Of a stretch of DNA of 58,653 nt, positions 5,525 through 53,830 are shown piece by piece. The notes under the pieces are model-generated. The model was not told the origin of the DNA, made no database searches, and saw only the letters and a list, made by a program, of their open reading frames with translations. Each line of letters starts with the position of its first letter. Within the stretch, counting starts at the first letter, position 1. A program made the translations under genes and the position numbers. This DNA is from Granulicella sp. (GTDB taxonomy: Bacteria; Acidobacteriota; Terriglobia; Terriglobales; Acidobacteriaceae), in assembly GCA_003162875.1 (NCBI GenBank), contig PLUT01000344.1, positions 1 through 58,653 on the forward strand, in the 5' to 3' direction.

Positions 5525-6655
5525 CTACCACGGGCGGGAGCGTGCGACCGCGATGCCGCGGACCTCGTCAGGGTACTTGCCAGCGACGGCGCAGTAGAAG
5601 TGATAAAGCGTGTCCTGATGGTAAATAACCGAAGACTTATGCGCGAAGGTCTCGTCAACGCTGCCCGGTGCACCGGTATCGATGAGAATCTCAGGAACCT
5701 TGGTGAAGTGAAGCGGGTCGTCGCCCAGCGCAAGCATCTCGCAGGCACGCCCTGGGCGCCGATATCCAAAGCCAAAATAGAACATCGCGTATCGGCTGCC
5801 ATTCTTCACAACATAAGGATTCGAAGCGAAACGGCTGTCGCGGCTATCGGGAGCGGGCGGGGTCTGATCGTGGACCGGGTTCGTGACCGGATAAGTCGCG
5901 GATCCGCGCACGCCGTTGCGCAAGATGGGATTCAGCGGCGAACGTCCCCAGTGTTTGAGATCGGTACGGGTGGCCACGCCGGTCTGCTCGTGCCAGCCGC
6001 CACCTTCCGGCTTCGGCAGCGGGTCGGTCTTGGCGTTGTAGTAGAGGTAATACGTCCCGCGATCCAGCAGCAGGTCAGGACGGTAGAGGCCGCCGTGCTC
6101 CCAGGATGCACCGTCCTCGGGATGCAGGATGGGTTCCGTCAGGGTCCAGTGGCGGAGATCGTGGGAGCGCGCGAGACCGATGACCGCGGCGCCCTCCTCA
6201 TATCCGGCGGAGGGGTACGCATTCCACGCCGCGAGATACTCGCCGTCGACCTTGAGAGCCTCGCCCGTCCCGTGCAGGTTCTTGTCACGCAGGATCGAAC
6301 TGATGGCGAGGTTGTACTTCGTGTAGGCGGAAGCCGCGTCACGAGGGCCGACGAGAGCCTCACGCTTCCAATGGAGGAGATCGTCGGAACCGGCGAGCCC
6401 GGTCTGGTAGCCGATTCCGTCGTAGCCGATGTACAGCATGTGGAAGCGCCCGTTGGCGCGAAAGACGATGGGATCGTCGACGCTGCGCTCGTCGAAGTCG
6501 CCTTTCTTGCCAGTGGCGCTGAGAACCAGTTTCGGGTATTTGTAAGGCGTTCGGTAAGGTGCGACCGGATCTACAGCTGCGTATGCGAGGGGTCCGGAAG
6601 CCGCTACAGCAGCGGCCTGGAGACCCCCCTCAAGAAACCGCCGCCGCGAAATCAT
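5525..6655 (-). CDS. Tat-exported five-bladed beta-propeller glycoside hydrolase (GH43/130/137-like, possibly beta-L-arabinofuranosidase)
   Basis: Twin-arginine signal MISRRRFL. Repeated blade motifs (VDDPIVFR..HMLY.G, TGLAGSDDLLHWKR, IGLARSHDLRHW, NPIL). The N-terminal TPYKY resembles GH137 as I recall it. Confidence 0.7.
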   Translation of the reverse strand: MISRRRFLEGGLQAAAVAASGPLAYAAVDPVAPYRTPYKYPKLVLSATGKKGDFDERSVDDPIVFRANGRFHMLYIGYDGIGYQTGLAGSDDLLHWKREALVGPRDAASAYTKYNLAISSILRDKNLHGTGEALKVDGEYLAAWNAYPSAGYEEGAAVIGLARSHDLRHWTLTEPILHPEDGASWEHGGLYRPDLLLDRGTYYLYYNAKTDPLPKPEGGGWHEQTGVATRTDLKHWGRSPLNPILRNGVRGSATYPVTNPVHDQTPPAPDSRDSRFASNPYVVKNGSRYAMFYFGFGYRRPGRACEMLALGDDPLHFTKVPEILIDTGAPGSVDETFAHKSSVIYHQDTLYHFYCAVAGKYPDEVRGIAVARSRPW

Positions 6656-8775
6656 TGCGTCTTCTCCGGCACGAGAACCGCAACGCCCTGCGGTGGAAGA
6701 GTGATTTCGGAGACCGGCGTAGCGTTCGAGGAGAGAAGATTGCGCATTGGCCGCTGGAGCGGTATCGAGACAGCCTCGGAGCCGTGATTAATGTAGATGG
6801 ATACAGAGCCGGATGGCCCGTAGCGGGTGCATTGTTCGATGGCATCCTGACCGGGGAACACTAGTTTTGGCACCTGCGGTGAGGAAAGCATCAGGAAGGT
6901 ATGGAGAAGCTTGGGGTCGGGAAGGGTGCCGAGGTAGGCAATGAGGCCCTTTCCTATCGCACGGGAGACAAAAGCGGGTTTGCCGTCGAGCCAACCACCG
7001 GGGTCGTCATAGATCGCGTTGATCTCCATTGCGGGCGAGTCGATAGAAAGTTGCTCAGCCCAAGTGTCGGCGGTACCAAGCACGCCAGGCGTGGTTACCG
7101 GAACAGTTGGATGATCGGGATTGGAGAGCTGAACTGGCTTCTCCAGCGCGTAATACTGCCCAACCTTCGCGCCAAGCGCCTCTGCCAGTGGTCCCGGCTG
7201 ACGCTGCGGGTTGAGCGAGTTGAACTCGTCTTTCATGCCGGAGCGCGGGCCGAGGATGAGTGTCCCGCCCTGGCGAACATAAGCAAGTAGCTTCGCGGCC
7301 AGCTCAGCGGAAATGACGTTGAGCGAAGGGGCAACAAGAAGCTTGTATCGCGCTAGATCGACCGAACTCGTCGGATCGATGATATCGACGGCCTGACCGT
7401 TCGCCGCGGCAATCTTCTCAAGCGGCTGATAGAACCGCAGCAGCACCTGCTCCTGGTCATAGTCCTTTGTAAACGGCTGGAAGTCGATGGCCCAGCGCGA
7501 ATCGTAGTCATGGAGAATGGCGATCTTCGCGTGCGGGCCGGTGCCGGCGAGCGCGTCACGTGTCAACTCCAGGTCCTTGCCAAGCTGCGCAATCTCGGAG
7601 TAGATCGGTAGCGGTTCTCCGTCGGGTCCGACGATGGCGCCGTGGTACTGCTCTTGCCCGTTGAGCGCGGAACGCCACTGCCAGTACAGCACCGCATCCG
7701 CGCCATGCCCAATCGTCTGCCACGCCAGCGCGCGGGTCTCGCCCGGCCATAATGCATTGTTCACGGGAGCCCAGTTCACGCTGCCCGGCTCGGTCTCCAT
7801 CACCCAGAAATTCTGGCGCTTCCAGCCGCGCACAAAGTCATTCAGCATCGCATTCCTCGTAACGTCCAGATGCCCCTGGCCAACGTAATCGTCCCAACTG
7901 GCGAGATCGAGGTCGGCCGTGATCGCGTAATGATCCCAGTTATCCGACCAGCCCAGGCCGCCGATGTTTGTCGTGATGAACTGCGTGGGAAGAATGAGCG
8001 GGCGCAGCACGTCGATCTGCGCGCGCTGGAAGCTGCGCCACGTGGCTGTGACAAAGTGTTTGTGGTCCAGCAGGAGGCCGGGGTTTTCGTTCGAGTTCTT
8101 CATCGGGATCTGCGACCACGACGTGTAGGTTTGCGACCAGTACGCGGTGGACCACTGATGGTTGAGGTTGTTGAGAGTCTTGTACTTGTCGCGCAGGAAT
8201 TGTTGGAACAGCGCCCGGGTAGAGGGGTCGAACGACTCATCGGAGTATTCGTTGCCGATCTGCCAGCCGATGACGTTGGGGTTTTGGCCAAAGCGGCGGG
8301 CGAGCTGCGCAACAATAAGTGCGCAGAGTTGGCGGTAGCGCGGGCTGGCGTAGTTGAACTGCCTGCGTTCACCATGCTGACGCCATTGCCCGTCGGCGTT
8401 CATGCCGAGAGTATCCGGATACTTTTCCGTTAGCCAGGCGGGCGGCGCGTCGGTGGGCGTACCGATGACGACGGCGATGTGGTGCTTCGCGGCGAGTGCT
8501 ATTGCGCGGTCCAGCCAGTCCAGTTCGAAGCGGCCTTCGCTCGGCTCCAGTGTCGACCATGCGAACTCGCCTACGCGGACGACGTTCATGTGGGCGTCCT
8601 GCATGAGTTGGAGATCGTGGTCCCACTGGGCCTCGGGCCACTGTTCGGGGTACCAAGCGGCACCTAACCGCACCATCGGAGATTGAGCAGAGGCTAATGC
8701 CGCGATCGAGAGCAGCAGAAGAAGAAGCGATAAGCGCGATGACAAGGCAGCCTTCAAGGTGACTCGAACATACAT
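6652..8775 (-). CDS. Beta-galactosidase, GH42 (family also includes alpha-L-arabinopyranosidases)
   Basis: Motifs GAAWYPEQW, VRVGEFAWS.LEP.EG, WQIGNEY (acid/base), FWVMETEPG (nucleophile) and GQEQYHG. Exact start uncertain (ATG 8775 or a slightly downstream TTG). Confidence 0.9.
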   Translation of the reverse strand: MYVRVTLKAALSSRLSLLLLLLSIAALASAQSPMVRLGAAWYPEQWPEAQWDHDLQLMQDAHMNVVRVGEFAWSTLEPSEGRFELDWLDRAIALAAKHHIAVVIGTPTDAPPAWLTEKYPDTLGMNADGQWRQHGERRQFNYASPRYRQLCALIVAQLARRFGQNPNVIGWQIGNEYSDESFDPSTRALFQQFLRDKYKTLNNLNHQWSTAYWSQTYTSWSQIPMKNSNENPGLLLDHKHFVTATWRSFQRAQIDVLRPLILPTQFITTNIGGLGWSDNWDHYAITADLDLASWDDYVGQGHLDVTRNAMLNDFVRGWKRQNFWVMETEPGSVNWAPVNNALWPGETRALAWQTIGHGADAVLYWQWRSALNGQEQYHGAIVGPDGEPLPIYSEIAQLGKDLELTRDALAGTGPHAKIAILHDYDSRWAIDFQPFTKDYDQEQVLLRFYQPLEKIAAANGQAVDIIDPTSSVDLARYKLLVAPSLNVISAELAAKLLAYVRQGGTLILGPRSGMKDEFNSLNPQRQPGPLAEALGAKVGQYYALEKPVQLSNPDHPTVPVTTPGVLGTADTWAEQLSIDSPAMEINAIYDDPGGWLDGKPAFVSRAIGKGLIAYLGTLPDPKLLHTFLMLSSPQVPKLVFPGQDAIEQCTRYGPSGSVSIYINHGSEAVSIPLQRPMRNLLSSNATPVSEITLPPQGVAVLVPEKTQ

Positions 8776-8855
8776 CGAACGAGGCAGTGAAGGCCAGCAG
8801 AGAGGGCAATCCAAGCAGCGCTTCGCCCTGAAGACCTGCGAACGTGGTGGGCGAG

Positions 8856-8870
8856 TTCCGCAATGCGGTT
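8856..8870. promoter_or_regulatory. Degenerate candidate operator TTCCG-CAATG-CGGTT in the divergent GH42/racemase promoter
   Basis: Left half perfect and right half 3/5. Its first 10 nt are identical to the reverse complement of the 46060-46074 site. Confidence 0.5.
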
Positions 8871-9018
8871 CCACATTCCTAGAAAACCTGTTTCATCCGA
8901 GGAGACAGAAATTGCGAGATATCTTTGCTTTACTATGCGCCGCGCTCCGAGTAGAACGGGAGAAGTCGATGGCATCGCCGGATCTATCCGGTATGCCATA
9001 CGTGGAGAACGAACCGAC

Positions 9019-9735
9019 GTGACACGAACACTAGCACTGATTCATACGAGCCCTACGCTGACTCCTCTTTTCAGCGCGCTGTGCGCTGAATCCATACCCG
9101 AGACAACCATCTTCCACATGGTGGACGAGAGCCTCATTAAAGACACAATACGTGAGGGACGTCTGCGGCGCGTGACCATACGGCGGCTGCTCGCCATGAT
9201 CGAGTCTGCCGAAATGGCCGGGGTAGACGCGGTGCTGGTGACGTGTTCCTCGATCGGCGCGGGCGTGGCGCTTGCGCAGAAACTCTTTGATATCCCCGTA
9301 ATTCGAGTGGACGAAGCCATGGCCGAAGCTGCCGTTAGAATGGGCTGCCGGATCGGGGTGATGGCGACCCTGACGACAACCCTGGAACCGACGATCGCGT
9401 TGTTGCAAGAGAAGGCAAGCGAGGCCGGAATCGAGATTGAAGTTGTGGAATCGCTTTGCGATGGCGCGTTCGACGCGGTCCTGGCCGGGGACGCAACAAC
9501 TCATGATCGCATTTTGAGTCACGCATTGAAACATGAGATGAAGGGCGTGGACGTGGTGGTTCTCGCCCAGGCTTCCATGGCCGGAGTGGTGAAGACGATG
9601 CCCCGTGGCACGTTGACGATGCCGGTGCTCAGCAGCCCCGAACTGGCTGTGCTGCAGGCGCGCGACGTGTTGGCAAGACTGGACGGCGGGACGCCCGAAC
9701 TGGTGGGATCGAACGGCCAGAAGGCGCGCTCTTGA
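9019..9735 (+). CDS. Asp/Glu/hydantoin racemase-family protein
   Basis: GTG start after GGAGA RBS. Motifs LALIHTS, VLVTCSSIG, RVDEAMA, RIGVMAT.TTLEPT and VVLAQASMA. Confidence 0.8.
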   Translation: MTRTLALIHTSPTLTPLFSALCAESIPETTIFHMVDESLIKDTIREGRLRRVTIRRLLAMIESAEMAGVDAVLVTCSSIGAGVALAQKLFDIPVIRVDEAMAEAAVRMGCRIGVMATLTTTLEPTIALLQEKASEAGIEIEVVESLCDGAFDAVLAGDATTHDRILSHALKHEMKGVDVVVLAQASMAGVVKTMPRGTLTMPVLSSPELAVLQARDVLARLDGGTPELVGSNGQKARS

Positions 9736-10982
9736 GGAAACGCCACGGCGTTCTTGGATTGCTTTGTGCCATGTCGGTCATCACTTTCCTCGATCGGATG
9801 GCGATCCCTACGGCCGAGTCCGGAATCCGTGGCGATCTTCACCTCTCGCCCGAGCAATTTGGCTGGGTGCTGAGTGCGTACGTTCTGGCGAATGCACTCT
9901 TCGAGATTCCTTCCGGCGCGATGGGCGACCAGAATGGCCGGCGGATCGAACTTACCCGGATCACCGTCTGGTGGTCGGGATTCACGACGCTGACCGGTTA
10001 CTGCAGGACCTTCGCGCAGATGGTTGGCTCGCGTTTTCTGTTCGGAGTTGGGGCGGCAGGCGCTTATCCGAATGCGGCGGGCGTGATCTCGCGATGGTTT
10101 CCGAAACAGGAACATGCGCGGGCTCAGGGATTTGTGTGGGGAGCGAGCAGACTGGGCGGAGTGCTGGCGCCTTTACTGCTGGTGCCGCTGGGAGCCTATC
10201 TGGGATGGCGGATGATCTTCTGGGTACTCGGCAGCGTTGGGATAGCGTGGTCGGCAGTCTGGTGGTTGTGGTTTCGCGACGCGCCGGAAGAAATGAAGGG
10301 CATCACTCACGCCGAACTTGAGGAAATTCGAGCGGGTCAGATTGCCAGGGACATACATGAGAGCGTGCCATGGGCGCGCCTGTTCGCATTGCCGCAGATG
10401 TGGCTGATCGTGGCGGCGTACTTTTGTTATGCGTGGGGAAGCTGGTTTTTCTTCGGATGGTTTACCACCTGGCTGACGCAGGGCGCCGGCTTCTCCGTCG
10501 GGCAGATGGGGTTCTTTACCTCATTTCCTTTCGCCATGGGGCTGATCGGGAATCTCATTGGTGGTGTGGCCAGCGAGCGGTTGGTCGAGCGCTATGGCAG
10601 ACGGCGAGCTTATCGCTGGGTCACCGGTATTTGTCTGACCGCCAGCAGCGGTCTGCTTCTTGGGATGAGCCTGGTAAAGGGACACGTGGCGATCGTGGTG
10701 CTGGCCACGCTGGGCTTCGGCGTAATGGACCTGATGCTGCCGTCTGCGTGGGCGATGTGCATGAGCCTTGGCGGCCGGTTCGGTGGCACAGCGACTGGCA
10801 TAATGAACACCGCCGGAAATCTTGGCGGATGGTTCTGCACAGTGTTCTTTGGGTATGTTGTCAGGGCCACGGGGGACTACAACCTTCCGCTTCGAGCGGT
10901 TGCGGTGATGGTGCTCGTAGCAGCCCTTGTGTTCGCGCGGGTTGATTGCACTAAAGGGCTGGTTGATCCGGAGCCGGTATAG
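9732..10982 (+). CDS. MFS transporter, anion:cation symporter (sugar-acid) type
   Basis: TFLDR in TM1, FEIPSG, RFLFGVGAAGAYP, RWFP..E, GIMNTAGNLGG and about 12 hydrophobic segments. TTG start overlaps the racemase stop. Confidence 0.88.
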   Translation: MRKRHGVLGLLCAMSVITFLDRMAIPTAESGIRGDLHLSPEQFGWVLSAYVLANALFEIPSGAMGDQNGRRIELTRITVWWSGFTTLTGYCRTFAQMVGSRFLFGVGAAGAYPNAAGVISRWFPKQEHARAQGFVWGASRLGGVLAPLLLVPLGAYLGWRMIFWVLGSVGIAWSAVWWLWFRDAPEEMKGITHAELEEIRAGQIARDIHESVPWARLFALPQMWLIVAAYFCYAWGSWFFFGWFTTWLTQGAGFSVGQMGFFTSFPFAMGLIGNLIGGVASERLVERYGRRRAYRWVTGICLTASSGLLLGMSLVKGHVAIVVLATLGFGVMDLMLPSAWAMCMSLGGRFGGTATGIMNTAGNLGGWFCTVFFGYVVRATGDYNLPLRAVAVMVLVAALVFARVDCTKGLVDPEPV

Positions 10983-11000: not shown

Positions 11001-12308
11001 CTACTTGCCGCGGACATGATCGAAGAAATCCGCGGTGCCTACCTGGCCCCCTTTCAGGACGAGTTCGAGGCCATCGAGCCGGGAATCGGCATGAGCGCGG
11101 CAGAGCGGGCTGCCGGGCTGGACATTGGCGATCCAGGTGAGGGCGTGAACTCCGAGTTGCTGGATTGCGTGCGAAGAGGTGTCACCGCCACAGATCAGGA
11201 TACGGCGGACCGGCGCAATTGAGTTGGCGTTTCGCTCGAGCAGTTCCGAAATCAGACTTCCTAGCGCGATTCCAAGGGAGTCTCCATATGCGGGAGATGC
11301 GGGAGTGCCGAGGGCCGTGTAGAGAATGGTGTCGCGGCCATCGGCAAGAGACCGGCTGGCAGATTCGAGAGCGGCGCTGCGGGTTGAGTTGTTTTCGTCG
11401 AGCAGGGCAAGAGGGTCCAGCGGTATGGGGTGATAACCATGGCCAATGGCGTATCGCAGTTGCCGCTCCGTCACCGCGGAACAGGATCCGCTAAGAACAA
11501 GCAGCGGCTTGGCGACAGCGATGGGCGCTGATGATGTCTGCACACTGAGCAGGCCCAGACAATTCCATTCCGAAACGAGGGCGGCGGTGAGCCCGGAGCT
11601 CCCCGCAGCGAAGAGTGGCCGCTGCTGCGCGCGACTCCAAAGCAGGCTGCCCACCGTGGACTGCGTTTCATCGTCGATCGTGTCGCAAATGACGGCTTGA
11701 TGCCCGCTGGCGATGAGAGCGTCGAGTGCGTCGGAAGCCGCGCCGGACCCAGACTTCAAAATTGAGGTATCGATGAGGCCGATCTTCGTCGAGGTCTGGG
11801 CAGCGAGGTGCAGGCGCAGGTCGGATTCATGCATCGGAGTCACAGGGTGACGGCTCATCGGGTGGCGATCGATGCGCTGAACGGCGCCATCGGGTGCTCC
11901 GGCGAAAAGATGACCGAAGGCGACGTAACGGCGCAGGTGGGGCGCACCGACGACGATGGGAACGAACGGAGGCGCAAAAACCTCGCGGCCGATCTCGATG
12001 GCGCGGCCGATGCTACCGATTGTGGGTGAGCTATCGAAGGTCGAGCAGACCTTATAGTGAGTGATCGGGGCTCCAAACCGCTGGAGTGCACGGAAAATGG
12101 CGGGAAGGTTGGCGGACATCCACCCCGGCGAGCGGGAACGGCTGTCTCCGGCAATGCCGATCGCCTGCGCACCGCTGAAGGTGGCGCGATGCTCCGGCTT
12201 TGGTACGCCGACAAAGAGGACGGCGGGAACACCGTTTGCGCCAAGTTGCTCCAGCACGTCGGTCGAGCCGGTGAAGTCGTCGCCGTAATAGGTGTAGAGG
12301 ATGGACAT
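11001..12308 (-). CDS. Four-carbon acid sugar kinase family (DUF1537), 3-oxo-isoapionate kinase OiaK-like
   Basis: Motifs YYGDDFTGSTD, HYKVCSTFDS, HPVTPM.ESDL, SGSCS..T..Q, GGDTS and LKGGQVG. Start at ATG 12308, just after the RLP stop. Confidence 0.88.
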   Translation of the reverse strand: MSILYTYYGDDFTGSTDVLEQLGANGVPAVLFVGVPKPEHRATFSGAQAIGIAGDSRSRSPGWMSANLPAIFRALQRFGAPITHYKVCSTFDSSPTIGSIGRAIEIGREVFAPPFVPIVVGAPHLRRYVAFGHLFAGAPDGAVQRIDRHPMSRHPVTPMHESDLRLHLAAQTSTKIGLIDTSILKSGSGAASDALDALIASGHQAVICDTIDDETQSTVGSLLWSRAQQRPLFAAGSSGLTAALVSEWNCLGLLSVQTSSAPIAVAKPLLVLSGSCSAVTERQLRYAIGHGYHPIPLDPLALLDENNSTRSAALESASRSLADGRDTILYTALGTPASPAYGDSLGIALGSLISELLERNANSIAPVRRILICGGDTSSHAIQQLGVHALTWIANVQPGSPLCRAHADSRLDGLELVLKGGQVGTADFFDHVRGK

Positions 12309-12312
12309 TCGG

Positions 12313-13578
12313 TCAGGTTCCGAAGAATTGCAAGGCAGCAGCGAGCTCAGGATGCGTGGCAGCATAGCTTTCGAGCGGGATGTTTGCGGCGGCTGCCTCC
12401 CACGCCTGTCGCAGGCTGCGGACTCCGGCGGCTACACCCATGGGATGACCAAGGATGCCGCCGCCGCAGGCATAGATGAGGTCAGTCGAGCCGAGGGCCT
12501 TGAACGTCTCCGGCGCCTGGCGTGCGGATTGGCCGGAGGAGAAGACGGGCATGATCTCACATCCAGGTGAGGGTGGTGGAAACATAGGCGTAAGGCAGGC
12601 TCGGGCGGAGGCGATGACAGACTCGTCGGACTCGCAGAACTTGTTGCGGAGGCCATTGACGTGGGTGTGGTCGACGCCGGCCAGGCGCCATAATTTCTGG
12701 AACGCGACAAACGACATGCCCAGCGCGGACGAACGGCCCATCATCCCCCAGCCGTTGCGGTGACCGTGGATGGCGAGCTGTGAATGTTGCCTCAAAGCTT
12801 TCATGGCTGGGAGCCCGATGGAGTTCACGCTGACCATGAGGCAGTTGCCTCCGCTGGCGACGATGTGGTCGTGGCGCCGGAGCATCTGGTCGAGATCGCC
12901 GGTCAGGTTGGCGGCATACATCACCTGCTTTCCAGCCTCTTGCTGGATATCCTTCAGGACGTTCAGGACGGCGGTAACGCGGGCTTCGAAGGGGCAGTGT
13001 GGACCGTCGGACTGGAGTTCGTCGTCCTTGATGAAGTCGATGCCGGCGTCGGCGAGGACGCGCACTTGTTCGGCCGTGGCTTCAGGTGACATGCCGATCG
13101 ATGGCTTGATGATGGTGCCAATGAGTGGCCGGCCGTGTACGCCGCTAAAGGCACGGGTTCCGGCAACGCCGAACTGTGGACCTTGGTATGCCGTGAGGAA
13201 TGCAGCTGGCAGCGTGAGGTCGAGGAGCTTGAGGCCGCTGAAGGCTTTGAGTTCCGAGAGATTGCCGGCAACTGTCGCGAGAAGATTCGGCAGCGACGGG
13301 CCGATGTTGTGCAGCGGCCAGGAGAGCGTGACCTCGGCGGTGCGGCGAAGGCCATCCCAGTTGGGCGGGGTGCCGGAGCCGGGGAGACTGGGCGCGGCGA
13401 CGGGTTCGCCCTCGACGATGGACTCAACCTGGGCAGCGTAGCGTTCACGCAGTTCGTCGGTCTCGCCGGGCACACGGAGGAAGGTTCCAGTCGACTGCTC
13501 GCCAGCCATGGTGGCTGAAGCTTGCGCAAGCGGGTAGGCGGTCTCGATCCAGTAGCGGGCGTAGATTCGGTCGCTCAT
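12313..13578 (-). CDS. RuBisCO-like protein (form IV), OiaT/OiaX-like
   Basis: Motifs GEQSTGTF, GTIIKPSIG, GIDFIKDDE, HGHRNG, NGLRNKF, PVFSSG and CGGGI.GHP. Adjacent to a DUF1537 kinase. No small subunit or PRK gene in the window. Confidence 0.92.
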   Translation of the reverse strand: MSDRIYARYWIETAYPLAQASATMAGEQSTGTFLRVPGETDELRERYAAQVESIVEGEPVAAPSLPGSGTPPNWDGLRRTAEVTLSWPLHNIGPSLPNLLATVAGNLSELKAFSGLKLLDLTLPAAFLTAYQGPQFGVAGTRAFSGVHGRPLIGTIIKPSIGMSPEATAEQVRVLADAGIDFIKDDELQSDGPHCPFEARVTAVLNVLKDIQQEAGKQVMYAANLTGDLDQMLRRHDHIVASGGNCLMVSVNSIGLPAMKALRQHSQLAIHGHRNGWGMMGRSSALGMSFVAFQKLWRLAGVDHTHVNGLRNKFCESDESVIASARACLTPMFPPPSPGCEIMPVFSSGQSARQAPETFKALGSTDLIYACGGGILGHPMGVAAGVRSLRQAWEAAAANIPLESYAATHPELAAALQFFGT

Positions 13579-13581
13579 GCG

Positions 13582-15384
13582 TCAGGCTCTGCTGAAGTAC
13601 GTTGCATACGTTTCGTTCTGGACGCGGTAGAGCGGGACGAAGACGATCTCATTGCCTGCGTAGTTCTCGACAAAAGATTGAGGAGCGAGTTTCTTGAGGC
13701 TGGACGGCAGAGCGAGGCGCTGCTGGCTGAGTTCGGGAGTGGGATTGAGAGCGACGTACTGCACCGGACCGCGCATGAGGGCGACGGTTTCAGGGTGGAG
13801 TTCGTCGATAGGCTCGGTGCGGAAGGACTGCGGGAGCGTAAGCTCGATGCGATCACCCGCGCGCCATGTGCGGTAGATGGAGGCGTACTTGCCGGGGCTG
13901 GTGGGCGTGGGGAGCCGCTTGCCGTTGAGTCTGATCGATGCGGATTGAGTAAGCCAGCCGGGAACACGCAGGTAGACCGTGAAAGCAGTAGCGCTGGCCG
14001 GAGTGAGCGTCAGAACAGTCGCGTCTTCGGCCGGGTAGCGCGTCTCCTGCGTGAGTTCGATCGGGGTGCCCGCAAAGGTGAAGCGCAGATGGGAAGGCGT
14101 AAAAAGATTGACGTACAGGCCGTCGTCAGCCTGAAAGTAGAGATTCAGCGGATAGTCTGCGACGGTCTGTGCAAGTGTGCCGGAACAGCACGGCCACTTC
14201 CTGGCGTAGAAGACCTTTTGCGCACCGGGCGAGTAGGTGGAGTAGTAGGGATAGTCGCCATCGGAGTCGGGCGGCTTGACCGCGAGGATGGTGTTGAAGA
14301 CAACGCGCTCGAGATTGTCGGCGTGGCTGGTGTTCGCGGGAGATGCGGTGAGGCGAATGAGATAGCGGGCGAGTTTGGTAGCCGCGTAGGCTCCGCACGG
14401 CGTCTCGAAGTGATCGACGGTGCTGGAGAGCGAGTTGTAGAGCTCGCCGCGATGCGGCGTAACGAAGGTCTCGTTCGGTCCCCAACCGCCCGAGGCGAAC
14501 TGCTGCTGCGTGGTAAGGAGTTCGAAAGCGTGTTGAAGAGCCTGCTTGTATTTCGGGTCGCTAAGGACTAGCCAGGCTTTCCCAGCAGAACTGAGAGCAA
14601 TGGCGTGGGAGTAGGCATGCTGACCGGGAAAGGGGTCGTCCCCGCGGGCGAGTGGGTCGAAAAGTTCGCGGTCCAGAAGATAGCGACGGGCGAGATCGCC
14701 GAACGCGGGATTGCCGGTGAGGTCGGCGGCAGTGAACAGATTCTCCGGCATGACGTAGGTCTCGTCATAGGGCGGATCCTTCTTGCCAATCCGGTCTCGG
14801 CCACGGGCGGGGAGAAGCGGCCGGGCACCTGCTAGAACGCGGCTCAAAATATCCTTGGTGCCGGACACGTTGCTGAGAGTCGCGGCATCGATCAGGCCGG
14901 CGAAGTGCTTGTCGAGCGTGTAGCAGATCCAGAGATTCGTGGAAGCGCGAAGGATGCTCTGGTTGTCAGGTCCCAATGTGGCAGCGAAGCCTTCGACGAG
15001 ATCGTGGGCTTTTTCGTGGCACGCGGCATCTCTGGTGCTGGCGCCGAAACGAGCGAGGCCGGAGATGTACTGACCAAGACTGTGGCCAGGGACGAAGCCG
15101 TCGCGATCGTACCATCCGCCCATGTCCTTGCCGGGCGCGGGCAAGCCTGCGCGCTGGCGATAGACCTTGAGCAAGCTGTCATTGGAGAGCGCAAGATAGT
15201 GGGCGTGGAGCGCGTCGTACTGCTCGGCAAGAGGTCCGCCGGTAAGTTGGACATCGGCATAGTTGAACTGCCGAAGGGGTTCGCGAGACGGTCCGCCCGT
15301 CGACCCCACTAGCCGCGGCGCAACCGTGAGAGCCGCCGTAGCCTGCACGGCGGTTTTCACGAAAGACCGGCGGTTCAATTGCAT
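13582..15384 (-). CDS. GH127/GH146-type beta-L-arabinofuranosidase-family glycosidase (GH127 includes aceric acid hydrolase), Tat-exported
   Basis: Tat signal NRRSFVK. Motifs GHSLGQYIS, ETPC, WPCCSGT (Zn/Cys motif), LRVPGW, R.W..GD.IEL.LP and ALMRGP. Alternative start at 15405 overlaps the regulator stop. Confidence 0.85.
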   Translation of the reverse strand: MQLNRRSFVKTAVQATAALTVAPRLVGSTGGPSREPLRQFNYADVQLTGGPLAEQYDALHAHYLALSNDSLLKVYRQRAGLPAPGKDMGGWYDRDGFVPGHSLGQYISGLARFGASTRDAACHEKAHDLVEGFAATLGPDNQSILRASTNLWICYTLDKHFAGLIDAATLSNVSGTKDILSRVLAGARPLLPARGRDRIGKKDPPYDETYVMPENLFTAADLTGNPAFGDLARRYLLDRELFDPLARGDDPFPGQHAYSHAIALSSAGKAWLVLSDPKYKQALQHAFELLTTQQQFASGGWGPNETFVTPHRGELYNSLSSTVDHFETPCGAYAATKLARYLIRLTASPANTSHADNLERVVFNTILAVKPPDSDGDYPYYSTYSPGAQKVFYARKWPCCSGTLAQTVADYPLNLYFQADDGLYVNLFTPSHLRFTFAGTPIELTQETRYPAEDATVLTLTPASATAFTVYLRVPGWLTQSASIRLNGKRLPTPTSPGKYASIYRTWRAGDRIELTLPQSFRTEPIDELHPETVALMRGPVQYVALNPTPELSQQRLALPSSLKKLAPQSFVENYAGNEIVFVPLYRVQNETYATYFSRA

Positions 15385-15401
15385 ACAGAAGCCTCTCGGG
15401 T

Positions 15402-16640
15402 TCATCGCGCGGCTGCCGCCGTAGCAGCGGAACGAGGTGCGGCGCCGTTGAAGCTTAGTCTTGCGTCCCCATGTTCGTCGAGCGGGTAGACGAGATCGAC
15501 ATTGCGCGGCGTGATGAGCTGATGTTTGACGAAGACGGTGAAAGGCACAGATTTTTTCTGTAGCATGCCGAGTGCGAGCGGGATGATTGCGTCGCCGTAG
15601 CGCTCCGGAAAGTAGGCGACTGTGCCGATCAGGCGGGTACCGGGGCGGCGCAGTTCATTACGGGTCTCGCGGATGGCATTCTGGCCGACGACTGCGCATC
15701 GTTCGCTCGCACCGGCCTCCTCAAAGGCGCGCAGTGCGGCCAGAGCACAGACATCGTTGACCGTGCCGACCAGCGTGCGGCGGGCTGGCGCTCTCCTCAG
15801 ATATTGACGAATGACCTCAAGCACCGTTTCGAAGTCTCCGCGGCCGTTGAGGTGAACAATAGGAACATTGACGATAGAAGGGAGTTCGGCGCGCAGACCG
15901 TCGACCAGGCCGGTGATGCGGAGTTCGAGGAGCGATCCGGCAATCGGGAGTTCCAGCAGGACGAGCTGGTCGACCTTGCCGTCCCAATTCTCGCGCGCCC
16001 AACGGCCCAGGGCCTTGCCGCCGATCAAGCCGGCGCGGTAGTTATTGGCGCCGAAGTAGGGGCAGCCGGGATGCGGGATTTCGATGGCGATAACGGGCGT
16101 GTTCGCCTCGAGGAACTTGGAGGCGATGGCTGGGGCAACGCGTTCGTAGGTCTGATATTCGAGCACCAGGTCCACACGTTCCTCGATGAGGATATCGACG
16201 TTGCGCAGGGCCTCGCGAGCGGAGTAGCGGTTGTTCACCGTGATTAGGTGGACGTGTTCGCGCGCAGCCGCAGTCTCAACACTCTGCAAGACGGCGCGGC
16301 AAAAGTCGGAATCGCCCTGAGCCGCGAAGCCGATTCGGAAGGGATGCGCCGTGACCGGGCCGAAACGGTTGCGATAGACTCCGGAACTCGCGCGCTCCAA
16401 CAATCCGCCGTGAATTAGCGTACGCAGCAGACGAAAGGACGTGGTTTTGGGCAGATGAGTGCGCTCAATAACCTCGGCAAGACTCAGTTCTTCTCCCAGC
16501 GACCGGAAAACCTTCAGAACTTCGCAGGCGCGCAACACGGTTTGCGATTCGTTACGATCGCTCCGGCGGCTGGGTACTGGAGTCGAATGGGCCTGGGTGA
16601 TCACGGGAGGAGTCTTGGTTGAATGGCTAGGGCTTTTCAT
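15402..16640 (-). CDS. Transcriptional regulator: IclR-type HTH fused to a periplasmic-binding-protein type 1 sugar-sensing domain
   Basis: N-terminal SQTVLRACEVL...LSLAEVIERTHLPKTTSFRLLRTL..GGLL (IclR HTH). C-terminal ribose-binding-like fold (PVIAIEIP, FGANNYRAGLIGG, AVVGQNA). Confidence 0.85.
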   Translation of the reverse strand: MKSPSHSTKTPPVITQAHSTPVPSRRSDRNESQTVLRACEVLKVFRSLGEELSLAEVIERTHLPKTTSFRLLRTLIHGGLLERASSGVYRNRFGPVTAHPFRIGFAAQGDSDFCRAVLQSVETAAAREHVHLITVNNRYSAREALRNVDILIEERVDLVLEYQTYERVAPAIASKFLEANTPVIAIEIPHPGCPYFGANNYRAGLIGGKALGRWARENWDGKVDQLVLLELPIAGSLLELRITGLVDGLRAELPSIVNVPIVHLNGRGDFETVLEVIRQYLRRAPARRTLVGTVNDVCALAALRAFEEAGASERCAVVGQNAIRETRNELRRPGTRLIGTVAYFPERYGDAIIPLALGMLQKKSVPFTVFVKHQLITPRNVDLVYPLDEHGDARLSFNGAAPRSAATAAAAR

Positions 16641-17945: not shown

Positions 17946-19190
17946 TTACTCCGCTCCGAAGCTCGTTTGGGCCTGGTGAAGCAACTCTGCGACCGGCACG
18001 CTTGTAGTGATATTCGCGGTGACGAGCGTGTCGATGATGGCCGCGATGCGCGGCCAGTCGGCGCGTTGGGGAATTTCACGGGAATTGGCGTGGAGTTGTT
18101 CGATGCGGTGATAGAACGGGATCGCCGCATTGACCTCGGGGTCTTGCCACGTCGTGCGGCGGCAACCGATGGCGCCGGAGGTAGTGGTCAACTTGTCCAT
18201 CGCCGGGGTGAGCCCATGGCGCAGAAACTGCCACGCCTGGTCCTTGTGCAGGCTGCCCGCCGCAATAGAGAGCATCCAGTAGACGTTGAGTGAGACGGTA
18301 CTTCCCTGCTCTGCGCATGGGACATCGGCGATCTCGACAAGTCCTCGAACGGCGGACTCCGGCGACGTGTGGGCCATGGTCGCGAAGCCAAACCAATTGA
18401 TCATCATTGCTACGTGGCCGGCTGCGAATGCCAGACCGGCGGCAACGGAGTCCAGCTTGCGGCAATCTGGATGGACGGCCTCTTGGTCGGCGAGGATCTC
18501 ACGATAAAAGGTTAGGGCCTCGGCGGCGGGCGGCGTTTCGAACTGAACTCGGCCCGCGCGGTCGAACAGATCGCCGCCGCGCGTCCACAGTTGCAGCAGA
18601 AAGTCGTAGACCGAGTTATGTCCATCGGGGAACGCGGCGAAGACGGTGCCATAGAGGCCGGGCCGCCTCTGGTGCAGAAATCGCGCGATGCGATGGAAGA
18701 TCTGCCAGTTGCCGGGAGGGCTCAGGTGCTCTCCGAACTGTTGCTCGTAGAGGGCTCGCAGTTCGGGATCGTCGAACAGATCGCGACGATAGATAAGGCA
18801 CTCAGGCCCGTCATGGTACGGAACGCCAAGAACCGCGTCATCGATACGCTGCAGTCGAAGCAGCGAATCAGTCCACCCTTGAGGAAAATTCTGTGGCGGA
18901 TCGGACTCCAACAGCGGGGCTAGATCCATCGCGCAGCCTTGCGCATAAACAGACGCAATCCAGTCCGTCGCGATGAACGCAACGTCCCAATCGCCGCGGC
19001 GCATGCCGTTGGAGGCGAAGAGAGCGTGCTCGAGCGGATGCAGATCGAGCGCAACGAGATCGAGCGTGAGACCGGTGTGGGCAGATGACTCAAAGGCGTG
19101 CCATTGAGCACGAATGGCTTGCTCGAAGGGGGGGTACTTGCGAACCGCGATGCGAAATTGCTCCGTGCGCTTGATCTTCCCGTCCATCAC
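17946..19190 (-). CDS. Family-1 solute-binding-fold protein without a signal peptide
   Basis: Motifs [25 protein letters not shown] and AWQFLR, typical of CUT1 binding proteins. No hydrophobic N-terminus. Confidence 0.8.
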
Positions 19191-20332
19191 TCTAGATTGA
19201 ACTCTTCCGCGATCGCCTGGTTGTGCTCGCCGATGCGAGGGGCGGCGAGCGGGCTGGTAAGCCGCTCGCCGTCGATGCGGATCGGGCAGCGCGTAGTGCG
19301 CATCACCGCACTCGGCCGGCTATCTATCGTCTGGACCATCTCCAGCGCCTTGAAGGCGTCGTGGGCGAAGAGCCGGTCCCACGTAAGGACATCGGCACAC
19401 CAGATATCGGCAGGCTCGAGTATCGATAGCCACTGCTGCGTGGTCTTGTGCTTCAAATGCTGCACCAGGATCGACTTGATCTCGTCGCGCTGATCGAAGA
19501 GCGACGCGGGGTTGGTGAAGGTGGCGAGCGCAGGGCAATCCAGCAACTCGCCGAGGCGTAGGATCGAGCCCATTGCCAGCGCCAGATACCCATTTGCGGT
19601 AGCGTAGATGCCATAGGGCGCGCCGAGGTATGCGTGGGCGTTGTTGACGCTGCTGCGTTCCGGCGGTCTGCCGCCATCGTTCAGGTAGGTGGTGAGTACC
19701 TCGAATTGCAGATCGAGGATTGACTCCAAAAGCGATACCTCGACCTTGCCTCCGAATCCAGTAATTCCCCGGCGCAACAGCGTGGCGAGAATCCCCTGGA
19801 CCAGATGTGCGCCCGCCATCATGTCTGCTACCGCAAGACCGAAGGGGACGGGCGGCTGCGCAGCATCGCCGTTGAGGAAGGGGAGGCCGGAAAGAGATTG
19901 CACCAATAGATCCTGTCCGGCCTTGTTGCGCCAGGGGCCTGTGCTGCCGTAGCCGGTAACCTCCCCATAGACGATCCGCGGATTAAGCTCGCGAACAGCT
20001 TCGTAGCCGAGGCCAATTTTTTCAATAACGCCGGGGCGAAAGTTCTGGATCATGACGTCGGCGTGCATGAGCAGTTTGCGGATATGAGCAAGATCATCAG
20101 GATTTTTGAGGTCGGCAGCATACGACTGCTTGTTGCGATTGATGGAGTGGAAAAGAGTCGAATCTCCGTCGAGCGACAAGTTGGAAATGTAGAGTTGGCG
20201 GCACAGATCTCCGGTGCCGGGCCGTTCAATCTTAATTACGCGTGCGCCCAGGTCGGCCATCCGCAGACTCGCGGAGGGCCCGGCGAGAAACTGCGAGAAG
20301 TCGACGACCAGCAGACCAGCGAGCGGTTTCAT
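19187..20332 (-). CDS. Class III CoA-transferase (CaiB/BaiF family)
   Basis: Motifs [51 protein letters not shown] (catalytic Asp region) and APRIGEHN. Confidence 0.92.
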
Positions 20333-21483
20333 GCGTCCTCCTTCCGCGCATCGGCGAGGGCCTTGTTCATGTTACCCAGAACTTCCACCTCTGGACCACC
20401 ATGGGTGAGGTAGTCGTAAACGAGCTTCCGAGCTGTGTCCTGAAATGCGATAAAGCCGGCGAAGCGAGGGCGAATCCAGGCGGCGTCAAGCGTCGTCAGA
20501 GTGTTCCCGAAGAAGTTCGCGGTGGCGGCATTCAGTGCCGGATCGAGCCACGCAGCGCGATGGCCGGGCTGGCCGCCCGACTGCGCGTAGAGTGTCTTCT
20601 GTACCAGCGGGCTGGCGACAAACTCGGCATACGCCAGAGCCTGCTCCGGATGTTTGCAGGTGCGCGAGATGGCGAGGCCAGCACCACCAAGCGTCGAACG
20701 CAGCGGCTTGCCGCTGAAGGTGACGAGGCCTCCGGCACAAAGGACCGAGGCAGCAAACCCGTCGCGCGAATAGTTGGAGTAGCCATAGGCGAACGGGCAG
20801 TAGGCAACGGCATCGGAGTCTGAGAGAAGTTGCCATGTGCGGATCGGATTGCGATCGAGCGAACCCGGTGCGCTGAGTTGAACCAGTTCGCGAAGAAGTT
20901 GCAGAGCCTGCCGGCCGGCGGCCTCCGCGATGACTTCGTCAGAGTGGGTAAAGGGCTCGGCACCGAGCGCATTTGCGAGCATGAAGAGATTCATCAAGCT
21001 GTCGATAGGAATTGCAGGAACGCTCACCAGCCCGCAGCGAGCCAGCGCCAGCAGTTCTTCCCACGTCGCGGGCAGTTGGGCATTGGCACGGTTCAGCAAG
21101 TCGGGACGGCAAGCAGAGATTGGCGCGGCCGCGTCGATTGCAAGCGCATACTGATGACCATGGTAGTTGTAACTTGCGTGAGATTGGCCAACCGAGTTGG
21201 CGGCCTGATCGGCTAGGAACTCGGCAGGGAGATATTCGTCGAGCGCGAGCAAGAGATTCTGCTGGGCGGCCTCGCCGATCGACGGATGATCAATCACCAG
21301 CATGTCGAAGCGTGAAGCCAGATCGGAGAGCGGTGCATCGGCGAACTGCTGCAGCGAGCGCTTTTGCCAGAGTATGGAAACGTCATGGTGAACCTCCGCG
21401 TAGCGCTGGGCTGTGGCTACGAGGGGAAGATAGCCGCGCGTGTGATTCCACGTAATGCCTGTGAGTTCGATCATGACCTTCAT
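20329..21483 (-). CDS. Family-1 solute-binding-fold protein without a signal peptide
   Basis: Motifs [35 protein letters not shown] and LGGAGLAIS. Start ATG 21483 or 21474. Confidence 0.8.
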
Positions 21484-21551
21484 GATCGTAGCTCGACAGA
21501 CCAGCCGTTGATCGGGATGATAAGTTTGCTGGGTGATGTGAAAGCGCGCAA

Positions 21552-21566
21552 TTCCGGAGAGCGGAA
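21552..21566. promoter_or_regulatory. Operator TTCCG-GAGAG-CGGAA
   Basis: Perfect palindrome in the divergent promoter between the binding-protein/CoA-transferase operon and MaoC. A degenerate tandem copy lies at 21566-21580. Confidence 0.72.
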
Positions 21567-21592
21567 TGCGGGCAGTGGAAAGGAAGCGTGCC

Positions 21593-22039
21593 ATGACGGG
21601 CGAGATGTTCTTTGAAGACTTTGTTGCCGGAGCGCAACGAGAAACCATAGGCCGAACCATCACCGAAACCGACGTGGTGATGCATGCCGGGCAGACCGGA
21701 GATTTCTACCCGCATCACATGGATGCGGAGTGGTGCCGAACGCAGCCCTTCGGCCAGCGCATGGCGCACGGCACGCTGATCTTCAGCGTAGCGGTGGGGA
21801 TGACGGCGGGCGCGATTAATCCTCGGGCGATGAGCTATGGATACGATCGACTCCGCTTTGTGCGCCCAGTATTCTTGAACGATACGATCCGTGTGCGCGT
21901 GTCGATCAAGCAGATGCGCGAGGATGCGAAGTGGCCGGCGCATGGAATCGTGGTGGAGGCGCTGGAAGTCGTGAATCAGCGCGGCGAAACAGTGCTCGTC
22001 GCCGAGCATCTGCTGCTGGTGGAGCGCCGCGGTTCGTAA
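21593..22039 (+). CDS. MaoC-family (hot-dog fold) dehydratase
   Basis: Motifs [26 protein letters not shown] and [22 protein letters not shown]. Confidence 0.88.
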
Positions 22040-34773: not shown

Positions 34774-34783
34774 GGAGTAGGCG

Positions 34784-45958: not shown

Positions 45959-46059
45959 GCATCACTACCGTGTATCGGCGAACGGCATTCAGCATAGCTC
46001 AAATGTCATAGCGCCACAGTGACGCGTCACACACCTCATGAATATCGTGCGCGGTGCCA

Positions 46060-46074
46060 TTCCACATTGCGGAA
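46060..46074. promoter_or_regulatory. Operator TTCCA-CATTG-CGGAA in the divergent Hcy-methyltransferase/sugar porter promoter
   Basis: Matches TTCCR-N5-YGGAA. Confidence 0.68.
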
Positions 46075-46141
46075 GATATCTCTTGCGCACGAATGTGCTG
46101 GCGCACGCTGCATGCGATTTGACACAATACGGGGACGACCC

Positions 46142-47569: not shown

Positions 47570-47611
47570 AGTGATGGATGGGCGAACACGCCCGCTGAAC
47601 GAGGCAAGGGC

Positions 47612-48883: not shown

Positions 48884-48915
48884 CAAGGTGAGACTGCCAT
48901 TGGGGGCCTAAACCC

Positions 48916-50433: not shown

Positions 50434-50438
50434 CCCAT

Positions 50439-51179: not shown

Positions 51180-51187
51180 GCGTCACC

Positions 51188-51826: not shown

Positions 51827-51878
51827 AAACTCACCTTTCAAGATCCTGCCCAGACCGAAACACAATCCCTTTATAACC

Positions 51879-52781: not shown

Positions 52782-52791
52782 GCTTGCGGGC

Positions 52792-53622: not shown

Positions 53623-53755
53623 GGGTTTGGATGCTCCTGAAGATGGGTTTGGTCGCTCAGACCCAGATGACTGCCGGCTGGAGGCAAGTATAGGCGTTGG
53701 ATTTCGCGGCTGTCTATTGAGTGGCCGTGGCCGGAGGATGCAGAGGGTGGGGCAA

Positions 53756-53770: not shown

Positions 53771-53830
53771 TGGGTTGGGTCGGTCAGCGTAGGCTGGCAT
53801 CTGTGCCGGGGAGTTCGGCAATGGGCACCG

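What the first reader, a model, noticed from the sequence alone, without database searches (positions are those of the whole stretch)
11001..16640. Candidate catabolic pathway for aceric acid using a RuBisCO-like protein
Seen: a tight minus-strand operon of regulator, GH127, RuBisCO-like protein (RLP) and DUF1537 kinase, with gaps of about 20 bp or less. It converges on a racemase-like gene and a sugar-acid MFS. Established: in oxidative D-apiose catabolism, OiaK (DUF1537) phosphorylates 3-oxo-isoapionate and an RLP then decarboxylates or transcarboxylates/hydrolyses it. That route needs apiose dehydrogenase, lactonase and apionate oxidoisomerase (ApnO). Also established: a Bacteroides thetaiotaomicron GH127 releases aceric acid (3-C-carboxy-5-deoxy-L-xylose) from RG-II. 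Seen: no ApnO, lactonase or Gfo/Idh/MocA dehydrogenase is recognisable here, and a separate non-oxidative apiose pathway lies at 27942-36199. Inference: aldose-ketose isomerisation of aceric acid gives HOCH2-CO-C(OH)(COO-)-CH(OH)CH3, the C-methyl homologue of 3-oxo-isoapionate. Kinase plus RLP could then act with no oxidative steps, yielding 3-phosphoglycerate + lactate (transcarboxylase) or a 5-deoxy-pentulose-1-phosphate + CO2 (decarboxylase). I know of no described aceric acid catabolic pathway.
Basis: partly seen in the sequence, partly recalled or inferred. Interest (0 to 1): 0.92.

Follow-up and report, generated by a model that had tools for sequence, protein, structure and literature searches.

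The report
Likely aceric acid breakdown cassette
Six neighbouring genes in a soil bacterium's pectin-degrading region likely free the rare branched plant sugar aceric acid and break it down with a RuBisCO-like enzyme, a route I could not find described, and they would do so with a different releasing enzyme from the one known in gut bacteria.

Summary
The operon is real. The aceric acid reading is well supported by gene context but untested biochemically. The RuBisCO-like protein (RLP) and kinase resemble the D-apionate enzymes OiaT/OiaK, yet apnO was not found in this genome (85% complete) or in two 98-99% complete congeners. In Bacteroidota-like loci the same RLP, kinase and one-cysteine racemase-fold gene follow a bona fide aceric acid hydrolase directly (8 loci); apnO is in 0 of 80. 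Among 261 Sphingomonadales genomes, the same 7 carry RLP, racemase-fold gene and this glycosidase; 5 of them lack apnO. One correction: the glycosidase is GH146-like, not a BT1003 orthologue, so it would be a convergent aceric acid hydrolase. Likely route: release, import, aldose-ketose isomerisation, phosphorylation, then cleavage to 3-phosphoglycerate and L-lactate. Against: 11 of 29 genomes with this glycosidase do carry apnO, and the RLP nests among apionate enzymes, so RLP and kinase probably accept both substrates. This scan noted the cassette earlier on other DNA; its index showed no note on the GH146-like enzyme or on a transketolase/aminotransferase variant seen here.

The parts
9019..9735 (+). 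One-cysteine Asp/Glu-racemase-fold protein; predicted aceric acid aldose-ketose isomerase
   Evidence: PF01177; racemase fold, at most about 21% identity to solved members; Cys76 invariant, second Cys site reads AQAS; GTG start with GGAG upstream; in 36 of 83 RLP loci
9732..10982 (+). Sugar-acid-type MFS transporter; predicted aceric acid importer
   Evidence: PF07690; best NCBIfam TIGR00893 D-galactonate transporter 210 bits, below its cut-off of 395; in 35 of 83 loci; a bile acid:sodium symporter family gene takes its place in Bacteroidota-like loci
11001..12308 (-). DUF1537 kinase, OiaK-like; predicted to phosphorylate the 3-oxo acid
   Evidence: PF07005 + PF17042; OiaK model 432 bits, cut-off 700; longest ORF starts at 12365, likely start 12308
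12313..13578 (-). RuBisCO-like protein of the apnO-linked, non-OiaX (OiaT-type) group
   Evidence: OiaX model 455 bits, cut-off 700; 44-46% identical to two annotated OiaX, 62-63% to apnO-linked RLPs of Xanthobacteraceae and Halomonadaceae; only RLP found in the genome
13582..15405 (-). GH146-like glycosidase with an N-terminal twin-arginine-like motif; predicted convergent aceric acid hydrolase
   Evidence: Best solved relative BT0349 GH146 by sequence and fold; E312, E334, C337, C406, C407, R12, R13 invariant in 21 of 21 aligned; own clade, support 0.992; occupies the slot before the RLP that BT1003 orthologues hold elsewhere
15402..16640 (-). Regulator: IclR-type HTH fused to a LacI-type sugar-binding domain
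   Evidence: PF09339 + PF13407; in 14 of 83 loci
5525..8874 (-). Context: GH137-like beta-L-arabinofuranosidase and GH42 glycosidase (RG-II chain B enzymes)
   Evidence: 5525-6655 matches the N-terminal part of NF049877; 6652-8874 PF02449
26098..36199 (.). Context: apiosidase-like glycosidase and the likely non-oxidative apiose pathway (transketolase A/B, FGGY kinase, ABC transporter, isomerase)
   Evidence: Pfam; pathway assignment from recalled knowledge of Carter et al. 2018; the isomerase has 73-84% homologues in 3 of 4 acidobacterial cassette carriers tested, 50% in the fourth

Best explanation
The six genes likely form the pathway that releases and consumes L-aceric acid from rhamnogalacturonan-II (RG-II) side chain B. 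Inferred steps: (1) the exported GH146-like enzyme cleaves the aceric acid-alpha-1,3-rhamnose bond; (2) the MFS imports aceric acid; (3) the one-cysteine racemase-fold protein isomerises the C1 aldehyde/C2 alcohol to HOCH2-CO-C(OH)(COO-)-CH(OH)CH3, the C-methyl homologue of 3-oxo-isoapionate, replacing the oxidative ApsD/ApnL/ApnO entry; (4) the OiaK-like kinase phosphorylates C1; (5) the OiaT-type RLP decarboxylates, recarboxylates and hydrolyses it to 3-phosphoglycerate plus L-lactate. Shown: genes, families, gene order, co-occurrence, trees. Inferred: every substrate and reaction. My odds: cassette consumes aceric acid 0.75; glycosidase is an aceric acid hydrolase 0.7; racemase-fold protein is the isomerase 0.7; 3-phosphoglycerate + lactate rather than plain decarboxylation 0.7 if the route is right. 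RLP and kinase probably also handle 3-oxo-isoapionate where apnO is present.
For: (a) Positional replacement: in 8 of 80 metagenome loci found with the Rufibacter racemase-fold protein, a BT1003-type hydrolase lies directly before RLP-kinase-racemase-transporter (gap 2-11 bp in 7, 145 bp in 1); 15 of 80 loci hold such a hydrolase, 10 of 10 tested pass the NF049879 cut-off, 0 of 80 hold apnO or apnL. (b) Rufibacter tibetensis plasmid: RLP-kinase-racemase-symporter operon among pectin genes, an aceric acid hydrolase at 1189 bits, no apnO on the plasmid. (c) 261 Sphingomonadales genomes: racemase-fold gene in 7, glycosidase clade (over 1000 bits) in the same 7, RLP in the same 7, apnO in 2 of them. 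(d) apnO not found in G007 (99%) and G036 (98%) nor in 18 of 29 glycosidase-bearing loci's genomes. (e) No BT1003 orthologue over cut-off in 10 of 10 carriers tested, while this genome has separate GH137-like and GH142-like enzymes for both beta-L-arabinofuranose bonds. (f) Distant racemase-fold homologues sit beside DUF1537 or 3-oxo-tetronate kinases in 4 of 8 distant plasmid loci opened. (g) In L208 the order is transketolase A/B, PLP aminotransferase-family gene, racemase-fold gene, aceric acid hydrolase, which fits a ketose intermediate. (h) In sphingomonads with apnO, glycolate-oxidase-like genes flank apnO and only one RLP is found, which points to OiaT-type chemistry.
Against: No activity measured. 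The glycosidase keeps the acid/base Glu and is 27-34% identical to BT1003-type enzymes over only the C-terminal part; its closest characterised relatives are beta-L-arabinofuranosidases. apnO is present in 11 of 29 glycosidase-bearing and 13 of 32 racemase-bearing genomes searched, in sphingomonads within the same RG-II supercluster about 15-26 kb from the RLP. 6 of 83 loci hold both apnO and the racemase-fold gene. Racemase-linked RLPs are not one clade, and no active-site column separates them from apnO-only RLPs. Two glycosidase clade members occur without the RLP, one among non-RG-II glycosidases (G596, G426). 65 of 80 metagenome loci show no aceric acid hydrolase, many being short contigs. 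I recall no aldose-ketose isomerase in the racemase superfamily. 4 of 8 distant racemase-fold loci have no DUF1537 kinase directly adjacent.
Confidence: 0.7

Rival explanations
1. Ordinary or relic D-apionate module: the RLP and kinase are OiaT and OiaK for 3-oxo-isoapionate, apnO is unassembled or lost, and the racemase-fold gene and glycosidase are merely RG-II neighbours.
For: RLP nests among apnO-linked enzymes and is 73-74% identical to acidobacterial RLPs that sit beside apnO. Seven sphingomonad-type genomes carry apnO and apnL in or near the same RG-II gene region. This genome is 84.6% complete.
Against: apnO not found in two 98-99% complete congeners, in 5 of 7 Sphingomonadales carriers, or in 80 of 80 Bacteroidota-like loci. 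Intact kinase and RLP are kept across three phyla without it. Several carriers have the separate non-oxidative apiose genes.
Confidence: 0.11
2. Same aceric acid entry, but the RLP only decarboxylates (OiaX-like), giving a 5-deoxy-pentulose 1-phosphate that an aldolase splits to dihydroxyacetone phosphate and acetaldehyde.
For: The best NCBIfam model is OiaX. Bacteroidota RLPs form a separate branch nearer the OiaX root and share the GQWGGQ motif with OiaX.
Against: Score 455 is below the cut-off of 700. The window RLP has E27, N106 and L188 where both annotated OiaX have D, G and K. No aldolase, triose-phosphate isomerase or RpiB gene clusters with the cassette, whereas one OiaX locus opened has the latter two.
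Confidence: 0.1
3. The glycosidase is a beta-L-arabinofuranosidase and the racemase-fold/kinase/RLP set consumes some other oxo-acid from pectin (for example a four-carbon uronic acid or another branched acid).
For: GH146-like sequence and fold with an intact Glu acid/base; a large paralogous family in 87 of 221 family genomes without any RLP link; distant racemase-fold genes go with tetronate kinases.
Against: It does not explain why BT1003 orthologues take the same slot. GH137-like and GH142-like genes already cover both beta-L-arabinofuranose bonds in this genome. The RLP-linked glycosidases form their own clade with distinct residues (W159, G207, K208, H332).
Confidence: 0.09

Closest known systems
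Oxidative D-apiose/D-apionate routes with ApnO, OiaK and the RLPs OiaT (transcarboxylase/hydrolase) or OiaX (decarboxylase), Carter et al. 2018 (paper not held; seen only as summarised in passages of PMC6302742, PMC13753588, PMC12994016)
   Same: DUF1537 kinase plus an RLP of the same group, adjacent and in the same order; predicted 3-oxo-acid substrate differs by one methyl group.
   Different: No ApnO, ApnL or ApsD found here; a racemase-fold protein and an anion MFS instead; both enzymes fall below the OiaK and OiaX model cut-offs; predicted co-product lactate, not glycolate.
BT1003, GH127 aceric acid hydrolase of Bacteroides thetaiotaomicron (PDB 5MQO; NF049879)
   Same: Same clan fold and Cys3-Glu zinc site; orthologues of BT1003 hold the same operon slot in Bacteroidota-like loci.
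   Different: Not an orthologue: 98 bits against 950; Glu312 where BT1003 has Gln (HQSYG); closer to GH146.
GH146 beta-L-arabinofuranosidases BT0349 (5OPJ) and Bll3HypBA1 (8K7X)
   Same: Best sequence and fold matches; acid/base Glu and zinc ligands kept.
   Different: Only about 19-22% structural-alignment identity; a clade-specific DRIGK loop before E215; RLP operon context.
Asp/Glu/hydantoin/allantoin racemases; 2-oxo-tetronate isomerase OtnI as functional analogue
   Same: Racemase fold with first catalytic Cys kept; like OtnI it sits upstream of 3-oxo-acid kinases.
   Different: Second Cys replaced (AQAS), so the two-cysteine racemase mechanism is not available; unrelated in fold to OtnI.

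Membership tests
Oxidative D-apionate RLP pathway | ApnO (PF16896) encoded | tested here: not met
   No hit in this genome (84.6% complete) or in G007, G036, G020; the same search finds it in 22 of 48 genomes
Oxidative D-apionate RLP pathway | ApnL lactonase and ApsD dehydrogenase | tested here: not met
   No ApnL hit; best ApsD-like hit 32% over 142 aa against 45-54% for apnO-linked ones
Oxidative D-apionate RLP pathway | DUF1537 kinase adjacent to an RLP of the OiaT/OiaX group | tested here: met
OiaX decarboxylase (NF042437) | Score over 700 bits and OiaX residues | tested here: not met
   455 bits; E27/N106/L188 versus D/G/K in two annotated OiaX
OiaT transcarboxylase/hydrolase | Groups with OiaT | tested here: inconclusive
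   No OiaT reference sequence or model appeared in my calls; the RLP groups with apnO-linked non-OiaX RLPs incl. Xanthobacteraceae; the characterised OiaT is from Xanthobacter autotrophicus (PMC6302742 passage)
OiaT transcarboxylase/hydrolase | Forms 3-phosphoglycerate plus a 2-hydroxy acid | not testable with these tools
   Needs an assay
OiaK (NF042436) | Score over 700 bits | tested here: not met
   432 bits; Bacteroidota kinases of the cassette score 436-442
BT1003-type aceric acid hydrolase (NF049879) | Score over 950 bits | tested here: not met
   98 bits
BT1003-type aceric acid hydrolase (NF049879) | Gln at the column where GH127 arabinofuranosidases have the acid/base Glu (its role is recalled, not read) | tested here: not met
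   BT1003 HQSYG and Rufibacter HQAFG versus invariant Glu312 here
GH127/GH146 clan | Cys3-Glu zinc site and acid/base Glu | tested here: met
   E334, C337, C406, C407, E312 invariant in 21 of 21; site described in PMC10850190 passages
GH146 beta-L-arabinofuranosidase | Activity on beta-L-arabinofuranosides | not testable with these tools
   Needs an assay
Two-cysteine Asp/Glu racemases | Two catalytic cysteines | tested here: not met
   Cys76 kept, second site Ala-Gln in 29 of 29 aligned
Asp/Glu racemase superfamily | Racemase fold | tested here: met
   Model pLDDT 91.5; best Foldseek matches TM 0.65-0.74 to hydantoin, aspartate and glutamate racemases

The most novel reading that the evidence does not exclude
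This is the missing catabolic pathway for aceric acid, with two new enzyme activities: a one-cysteine racemase-fold aldose-ketose isomerase for oxo-sugar acids, and a GH146-derived aceric acid hydrolase that arose independently of BT1003. The RLP would run RuBisCO-like carboxylation and hydrolysis on the enediolate of a five-carbon 5-deoxy-pentulose 1-phosphate, a closer mimic of ribulose bisphosphate than the apionate substrate. A second route (isomerase, transketolase, aminotransferase) would turn aceric acid into a threonine isomer.
Probability: 0.5. Interest if true: 0.85.

Novelty: new variant of a known kind. Interest (0 to 1): 0.74.

Why it matters
Aceric acid is a signature sugar of RG-II side chain B, and I found no catabolic route for it in print (listings only, library lacks most subscription journals). 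B. thetaiotaomicron releases it and secretes both it and the trisaccharide AceA-Rha-Api (bioRxiv 10.64898/2026.03.13.711244, passages), so who consumes it is open. The cassette makes that directly testable with four small enzymes and a substrate that a BT1003 mutant already yields. If right, it assigns a function to a widespread unannotated racemase-fold family (809 clusters at E up to 1e-30), adds a natural substrate for a carboxylating RLP, and shows convergent aceric acid hydrolases in clan GH127/146.

Tried and rejected
Candidate isomerases 34784-36199 and 51879-52817: no hit in any of the 83 RLP loci; the first goes with the transketolase apiose genes. GH142 role (chain D arabinofuranose) for the glycosidase: weakened because a BT1020 C-terminal homologue exists on contig C69 (300 bits) and in 3 of 5 carriers tested, though not in the two sphingomonads. 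An RLP clade or residue specific for aceric acid: not found (50 versus 39 sequences). Structure models gave folds only; the glycosidase active-site loops had pLDDT below 50, so no carboxylate pocket could be judged. Family-level survey of 221 genomes was uninformative for co-occurrence: RLP in only 2, glycosidase clade in 4 (the tally of 87 includes one unpublished genome, G421, on which no other claim rests). Phylum survey: racemase-fold gene in 4 of 301. The aminotransferase of L208 had no plasmid match at 1e-60. LutABC-like lactate genes exist on contig C317 but beside a rhamnose transporter, so they do not discriminate. Carter 2018 and Ndeh 2017 could not be read; their supplements may list racemase-fold neighbours. 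A search for DUF1537 with racemase gave 4 unrelated-looking listings, not opened. No complex prediction or read mapping was run.


Full report
Observation. Families: IclR-HTH/sugar-binding regulator, PF07944/PF20736 glycosidase, RLP, DUF1537 kinase, MFS, PF01177 racemase-fold. The window is an RG-II locus: GH29, GH137-like, GH42, three GH78, an apiosidase-like gene, RhaT, and transketolase/kinase/ABC/isomerase genes at 27942-36199. A second contig (C69) adds GH95, GH28, a sialidase-like gene and a BT1020 C-terminal (GH142-type) homologue. The closest RLP relatives are from Acidobacteriaceae. The genome is 84.6% complete, has one RLP and no detected apnO or apnL.

RLP neighbourhoods. I examined 83 loci (80 best GTDB hits, plus 3 congeners; L030 and L090 are the same DNA). 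The kinase is in 82, the racemase-fold gene in 36, the MFS in 35, the glycosidase in 29, apnO in 43 (apnO identified by PF16896). Racemase-fold gene and apnO share 6 loci, glycosidase and apnO 2; 24 of 29 glycosidase loci also hold the racemase-fold gene. Whole-genome apnO searches covered 48 of the 83: 18 of 29 glycosidase loci and 19 of 32 racemase loci lie in genomes without a hit, including G007 (99%) and G036 (98%). Against the simple reading, 11 of 29 do have apnO. In the seven sphingomonad-type genomes opened, apnO lies beside apnL among RG-II genes (on the RLP contig, about 15-26 kb away, in six), and in three of them next to glycolate-oxidase-like genes.

Unbiased draw. In 261 Sphingomonadales genomes (one is the centre, one more was already known to me) the racemase-fold gene is in 7, the glycosidase clade in the same 7, the RLP in the same 7 with one copy each, and apnO in 2 of those 7. 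The 5 without apnO also lack a BT1003 orthologue. Kin are not independent and the genes are linked, so this shows a unit, not a statistic.

The strongest test came from another phylum. A plasmid search with the racemase-fold protein led to Rufibacter tibetensis, whose pectin plasmid has an RLP-kinase-racemase-symporter operon, an aceric acid hydrolase above cut-off elsewhere on the plasmid and no apnO on the plasmid (chromosome not searched). Using its racemase-fold protein I fetched 80 of 95 metagenome loci (Bacteroidota-like by SusC/SusD and T9SS genes). None has apnO or apnL; 47 have the kinase, 38 the RLP, 15 a BT1003-type hydrolase; only 20 are 15 kb or longer. Ten of those 15 were scored and all pass the NF049879 cut-off. 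In 8 loci the hydrolase lies immediately before the RLP, followed by kinase, racemase-fold gene and transporter. That is the slot the GH146-like gene holds in the window. Two distantly related enzymes of one clan in one slot, one of them with a known activity, is the main reason to read the cassette as aceric acid catabolism.

The glycosidase. It is not a BT1003 orthologue (98 of 950 bits). A profile of 21 members scores 195 bits on GH146 BT0349 and 111 on BT1003; Foldseek ranks GH146 first. It keeps Glu312 where BT1003 has Gln. In a tree of 42 sequences the 19 RLP-linked proteins plus two unlinked ones form one clade (0.992) apart from 18 paralogues of 36-43% identity. Clade-specific residues include W159, G207, K208 and H332; a basic loop there could bind the carboxylate, but the model is unreliable in that region. 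None of 10 carriers tested has a BT1003 orthologue. This genome has dedicated GH137-like and GH142-like genes, the two RG-II beta-L-arabinofuranosidase families named in PMC10850190 (passages), which leaves the aceric acid bond without its known enzyme.

The racemase-fold protein. The fold is confirmed. H9, D36, C76, S77, D98, T117, H162, D163 and Q184 are invariant in 29 sequences from several phyla including an archaeon; the second cysteine is absent. Of 8 distant plasmid loci opened, 4 place it next to a DUF1537 or 3-oxo-tetronate kinase, with an aldolase or a dehydrogenase (Neorhizobium, Deinococcus, Haladaptatus, Ilyobacter); 4 do not (in one search otnK is about 9 kb away). In the known tetronate route that position is held by the isomerase OtnI (PMC12994016 passages). 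Aceric acid has no alpha-hydrogen, so racemisation is excluded on chemical grounds, while aldose-ketose isomerisation gives the beta-keto acid that the kinase and RLP need. L208 has transketolase A/B, a PF00155 gene, the racemase-fold gene and an aceric acid hydrolase in a row, with no kinase or RLP in 10 kb upstream; L199, L210 and L214 show parts of this order, and L153 and L217 have the transketolase pair divergent. These transketolases are 51-86% alike and 34-42% to the apiose-type ones. A transketolase would cleave the proposed ketose to 3-hydroxy-2-oxobutanoate, an aminotransferase substrate. This is inference from a few short contigs.

The RLP. In a tree of 121 sequences rooted on two annotated OiaX, the window RLP nests among apnO-linked enzymes; Bacteroidota RLPs form a separate branch (0.999). 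It has E27, N106, K158, K184-D-D-E187, H273-R274 and K313; OiaX differs at 27, 106 and 188 (equivalence to RuBisCO E60, N123, K175, K201, H294, K334 is recalled). With glycolate-oxidase-like genes beside apnO in single-RLP sphingomonads, OiaT-type chemistry is the likelier. For aceric acid this predicts 3-phosphoglycerate plus L-lactate (C4 of L-xylose; stereochemical inference). Whether the quaternary carbon has the hand the enzymes accept is untested. The simplest history is that one kinase/RLP pair serves two entries, ApnO for apionate and the racemase-fold protein for aceric acid, and that lineages with the non-oxidative apiose route kept only the second.

Literature. Carter 2018 and Ndeh 2017 were not held. 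I saw the abstract, introduction and passages of PMC13753588 ('aceric' and 'racemase' occur 0 times), passages of PMC6302742, PMC12994016, PMC10850190, PMC5698469 and PMC8920986, and abstract and passages of bioRxiv 10.64898/2026.03.13.711244 (supplements not seen). Searches for aceric acid with GH127, catabolism, BT1003, kinase/isomerase/pathway or RuBisCO listed no paper whose title or abstract describes a catabolic route. After reaching this reading I found that the scan had proposed the same cassette on other genomes; those notes are not independent evidence. Look-ups for the GH146-like enzyme and for the transketolase variant returned nothing.

Verdict. A real, conserved cassette and the best candidate for aceric acid catabolism; a new variant of the OiaK/OiaT route with a predicted new isomerase and a predicted convergent hydrolase. 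Confidence 0.7, interest 0.74.

Noticed in passing
L208:6882-12728; also L199, L210, L214, L153, L217: Transketolase A/B + PLP aminotransferase-family gene + racemase-fold gene + BT1003-type hydrolase with no kinase or RLP seen: a possible second aceric acid route through 3-hydroxy-2-oxobutanoate to a threonine isomer.
   Followed up: partly
window 17946-22039; L246:2200-8535; L238:3152-13027; L151; L198: A module of solute-binding-like proteins, family III CoA-transferase(s), a MaoC dehydratase and often a Gfo/Idh/MocA gene recurs in RG-II loci of Acidobacteriota, Bacteroidota and sphingomonads (58-64% identity to Rufibacter). Substrate unknown; could be another RG-II sugar pathway.
   Followed up: no
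window 45071-54622: Corrinoid methyltransferase set (homocysteine methyltransferase, URO-D family, RACo activator, DUF1638, B12-binding protein), a TIM-barrel protein and a PhyH dioxygenase beside the RG-II genes: possible O-demethylation of 2-O-methyl sugars.
   Followed up: no
G000:C69 21674-26341 (L248:6675-11342): Second DUF1537 kinase with PdxA-like dehydrogenase, sodium:solute symporter and HpcH aldolase among RG-II genes; L193 and L213 have a similar set with a DHDPS-family aldolase divergent from the RLP operon. Possible Kdo or Dha route.
   Followed up: no
L220-L237 (family survey): A large uncharacterised GH146-like family, 36-43% identical to the window glycosidase, occurs in 87 of 221 genomes of the window's family, often near TonB-dependent receptors.
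   Followed up: partly
L127, L129, L137 (rhizobial plasmids): Racemase-fold homologues (about 47%) beside FAD-dependent oxidase genes, in two cases with otnK nearby: possible entry of a four-carbon oxo-acid from an amine or opine-like compound.
   Followed up: no
L103:1902-7532: A 79% homologue of the window's regulator sits beside apnL, an MFS and apnO, so this regulator family may sense an intermediate shared by both entries.
   Followed up: no
L242:9977-14060 (Chimaeribacter plasmid): RLP-kinase-MFS operon with neither apnO nor a racemase-fold gene annotated within 10 kb; supplier unknown.
   Followed up: no
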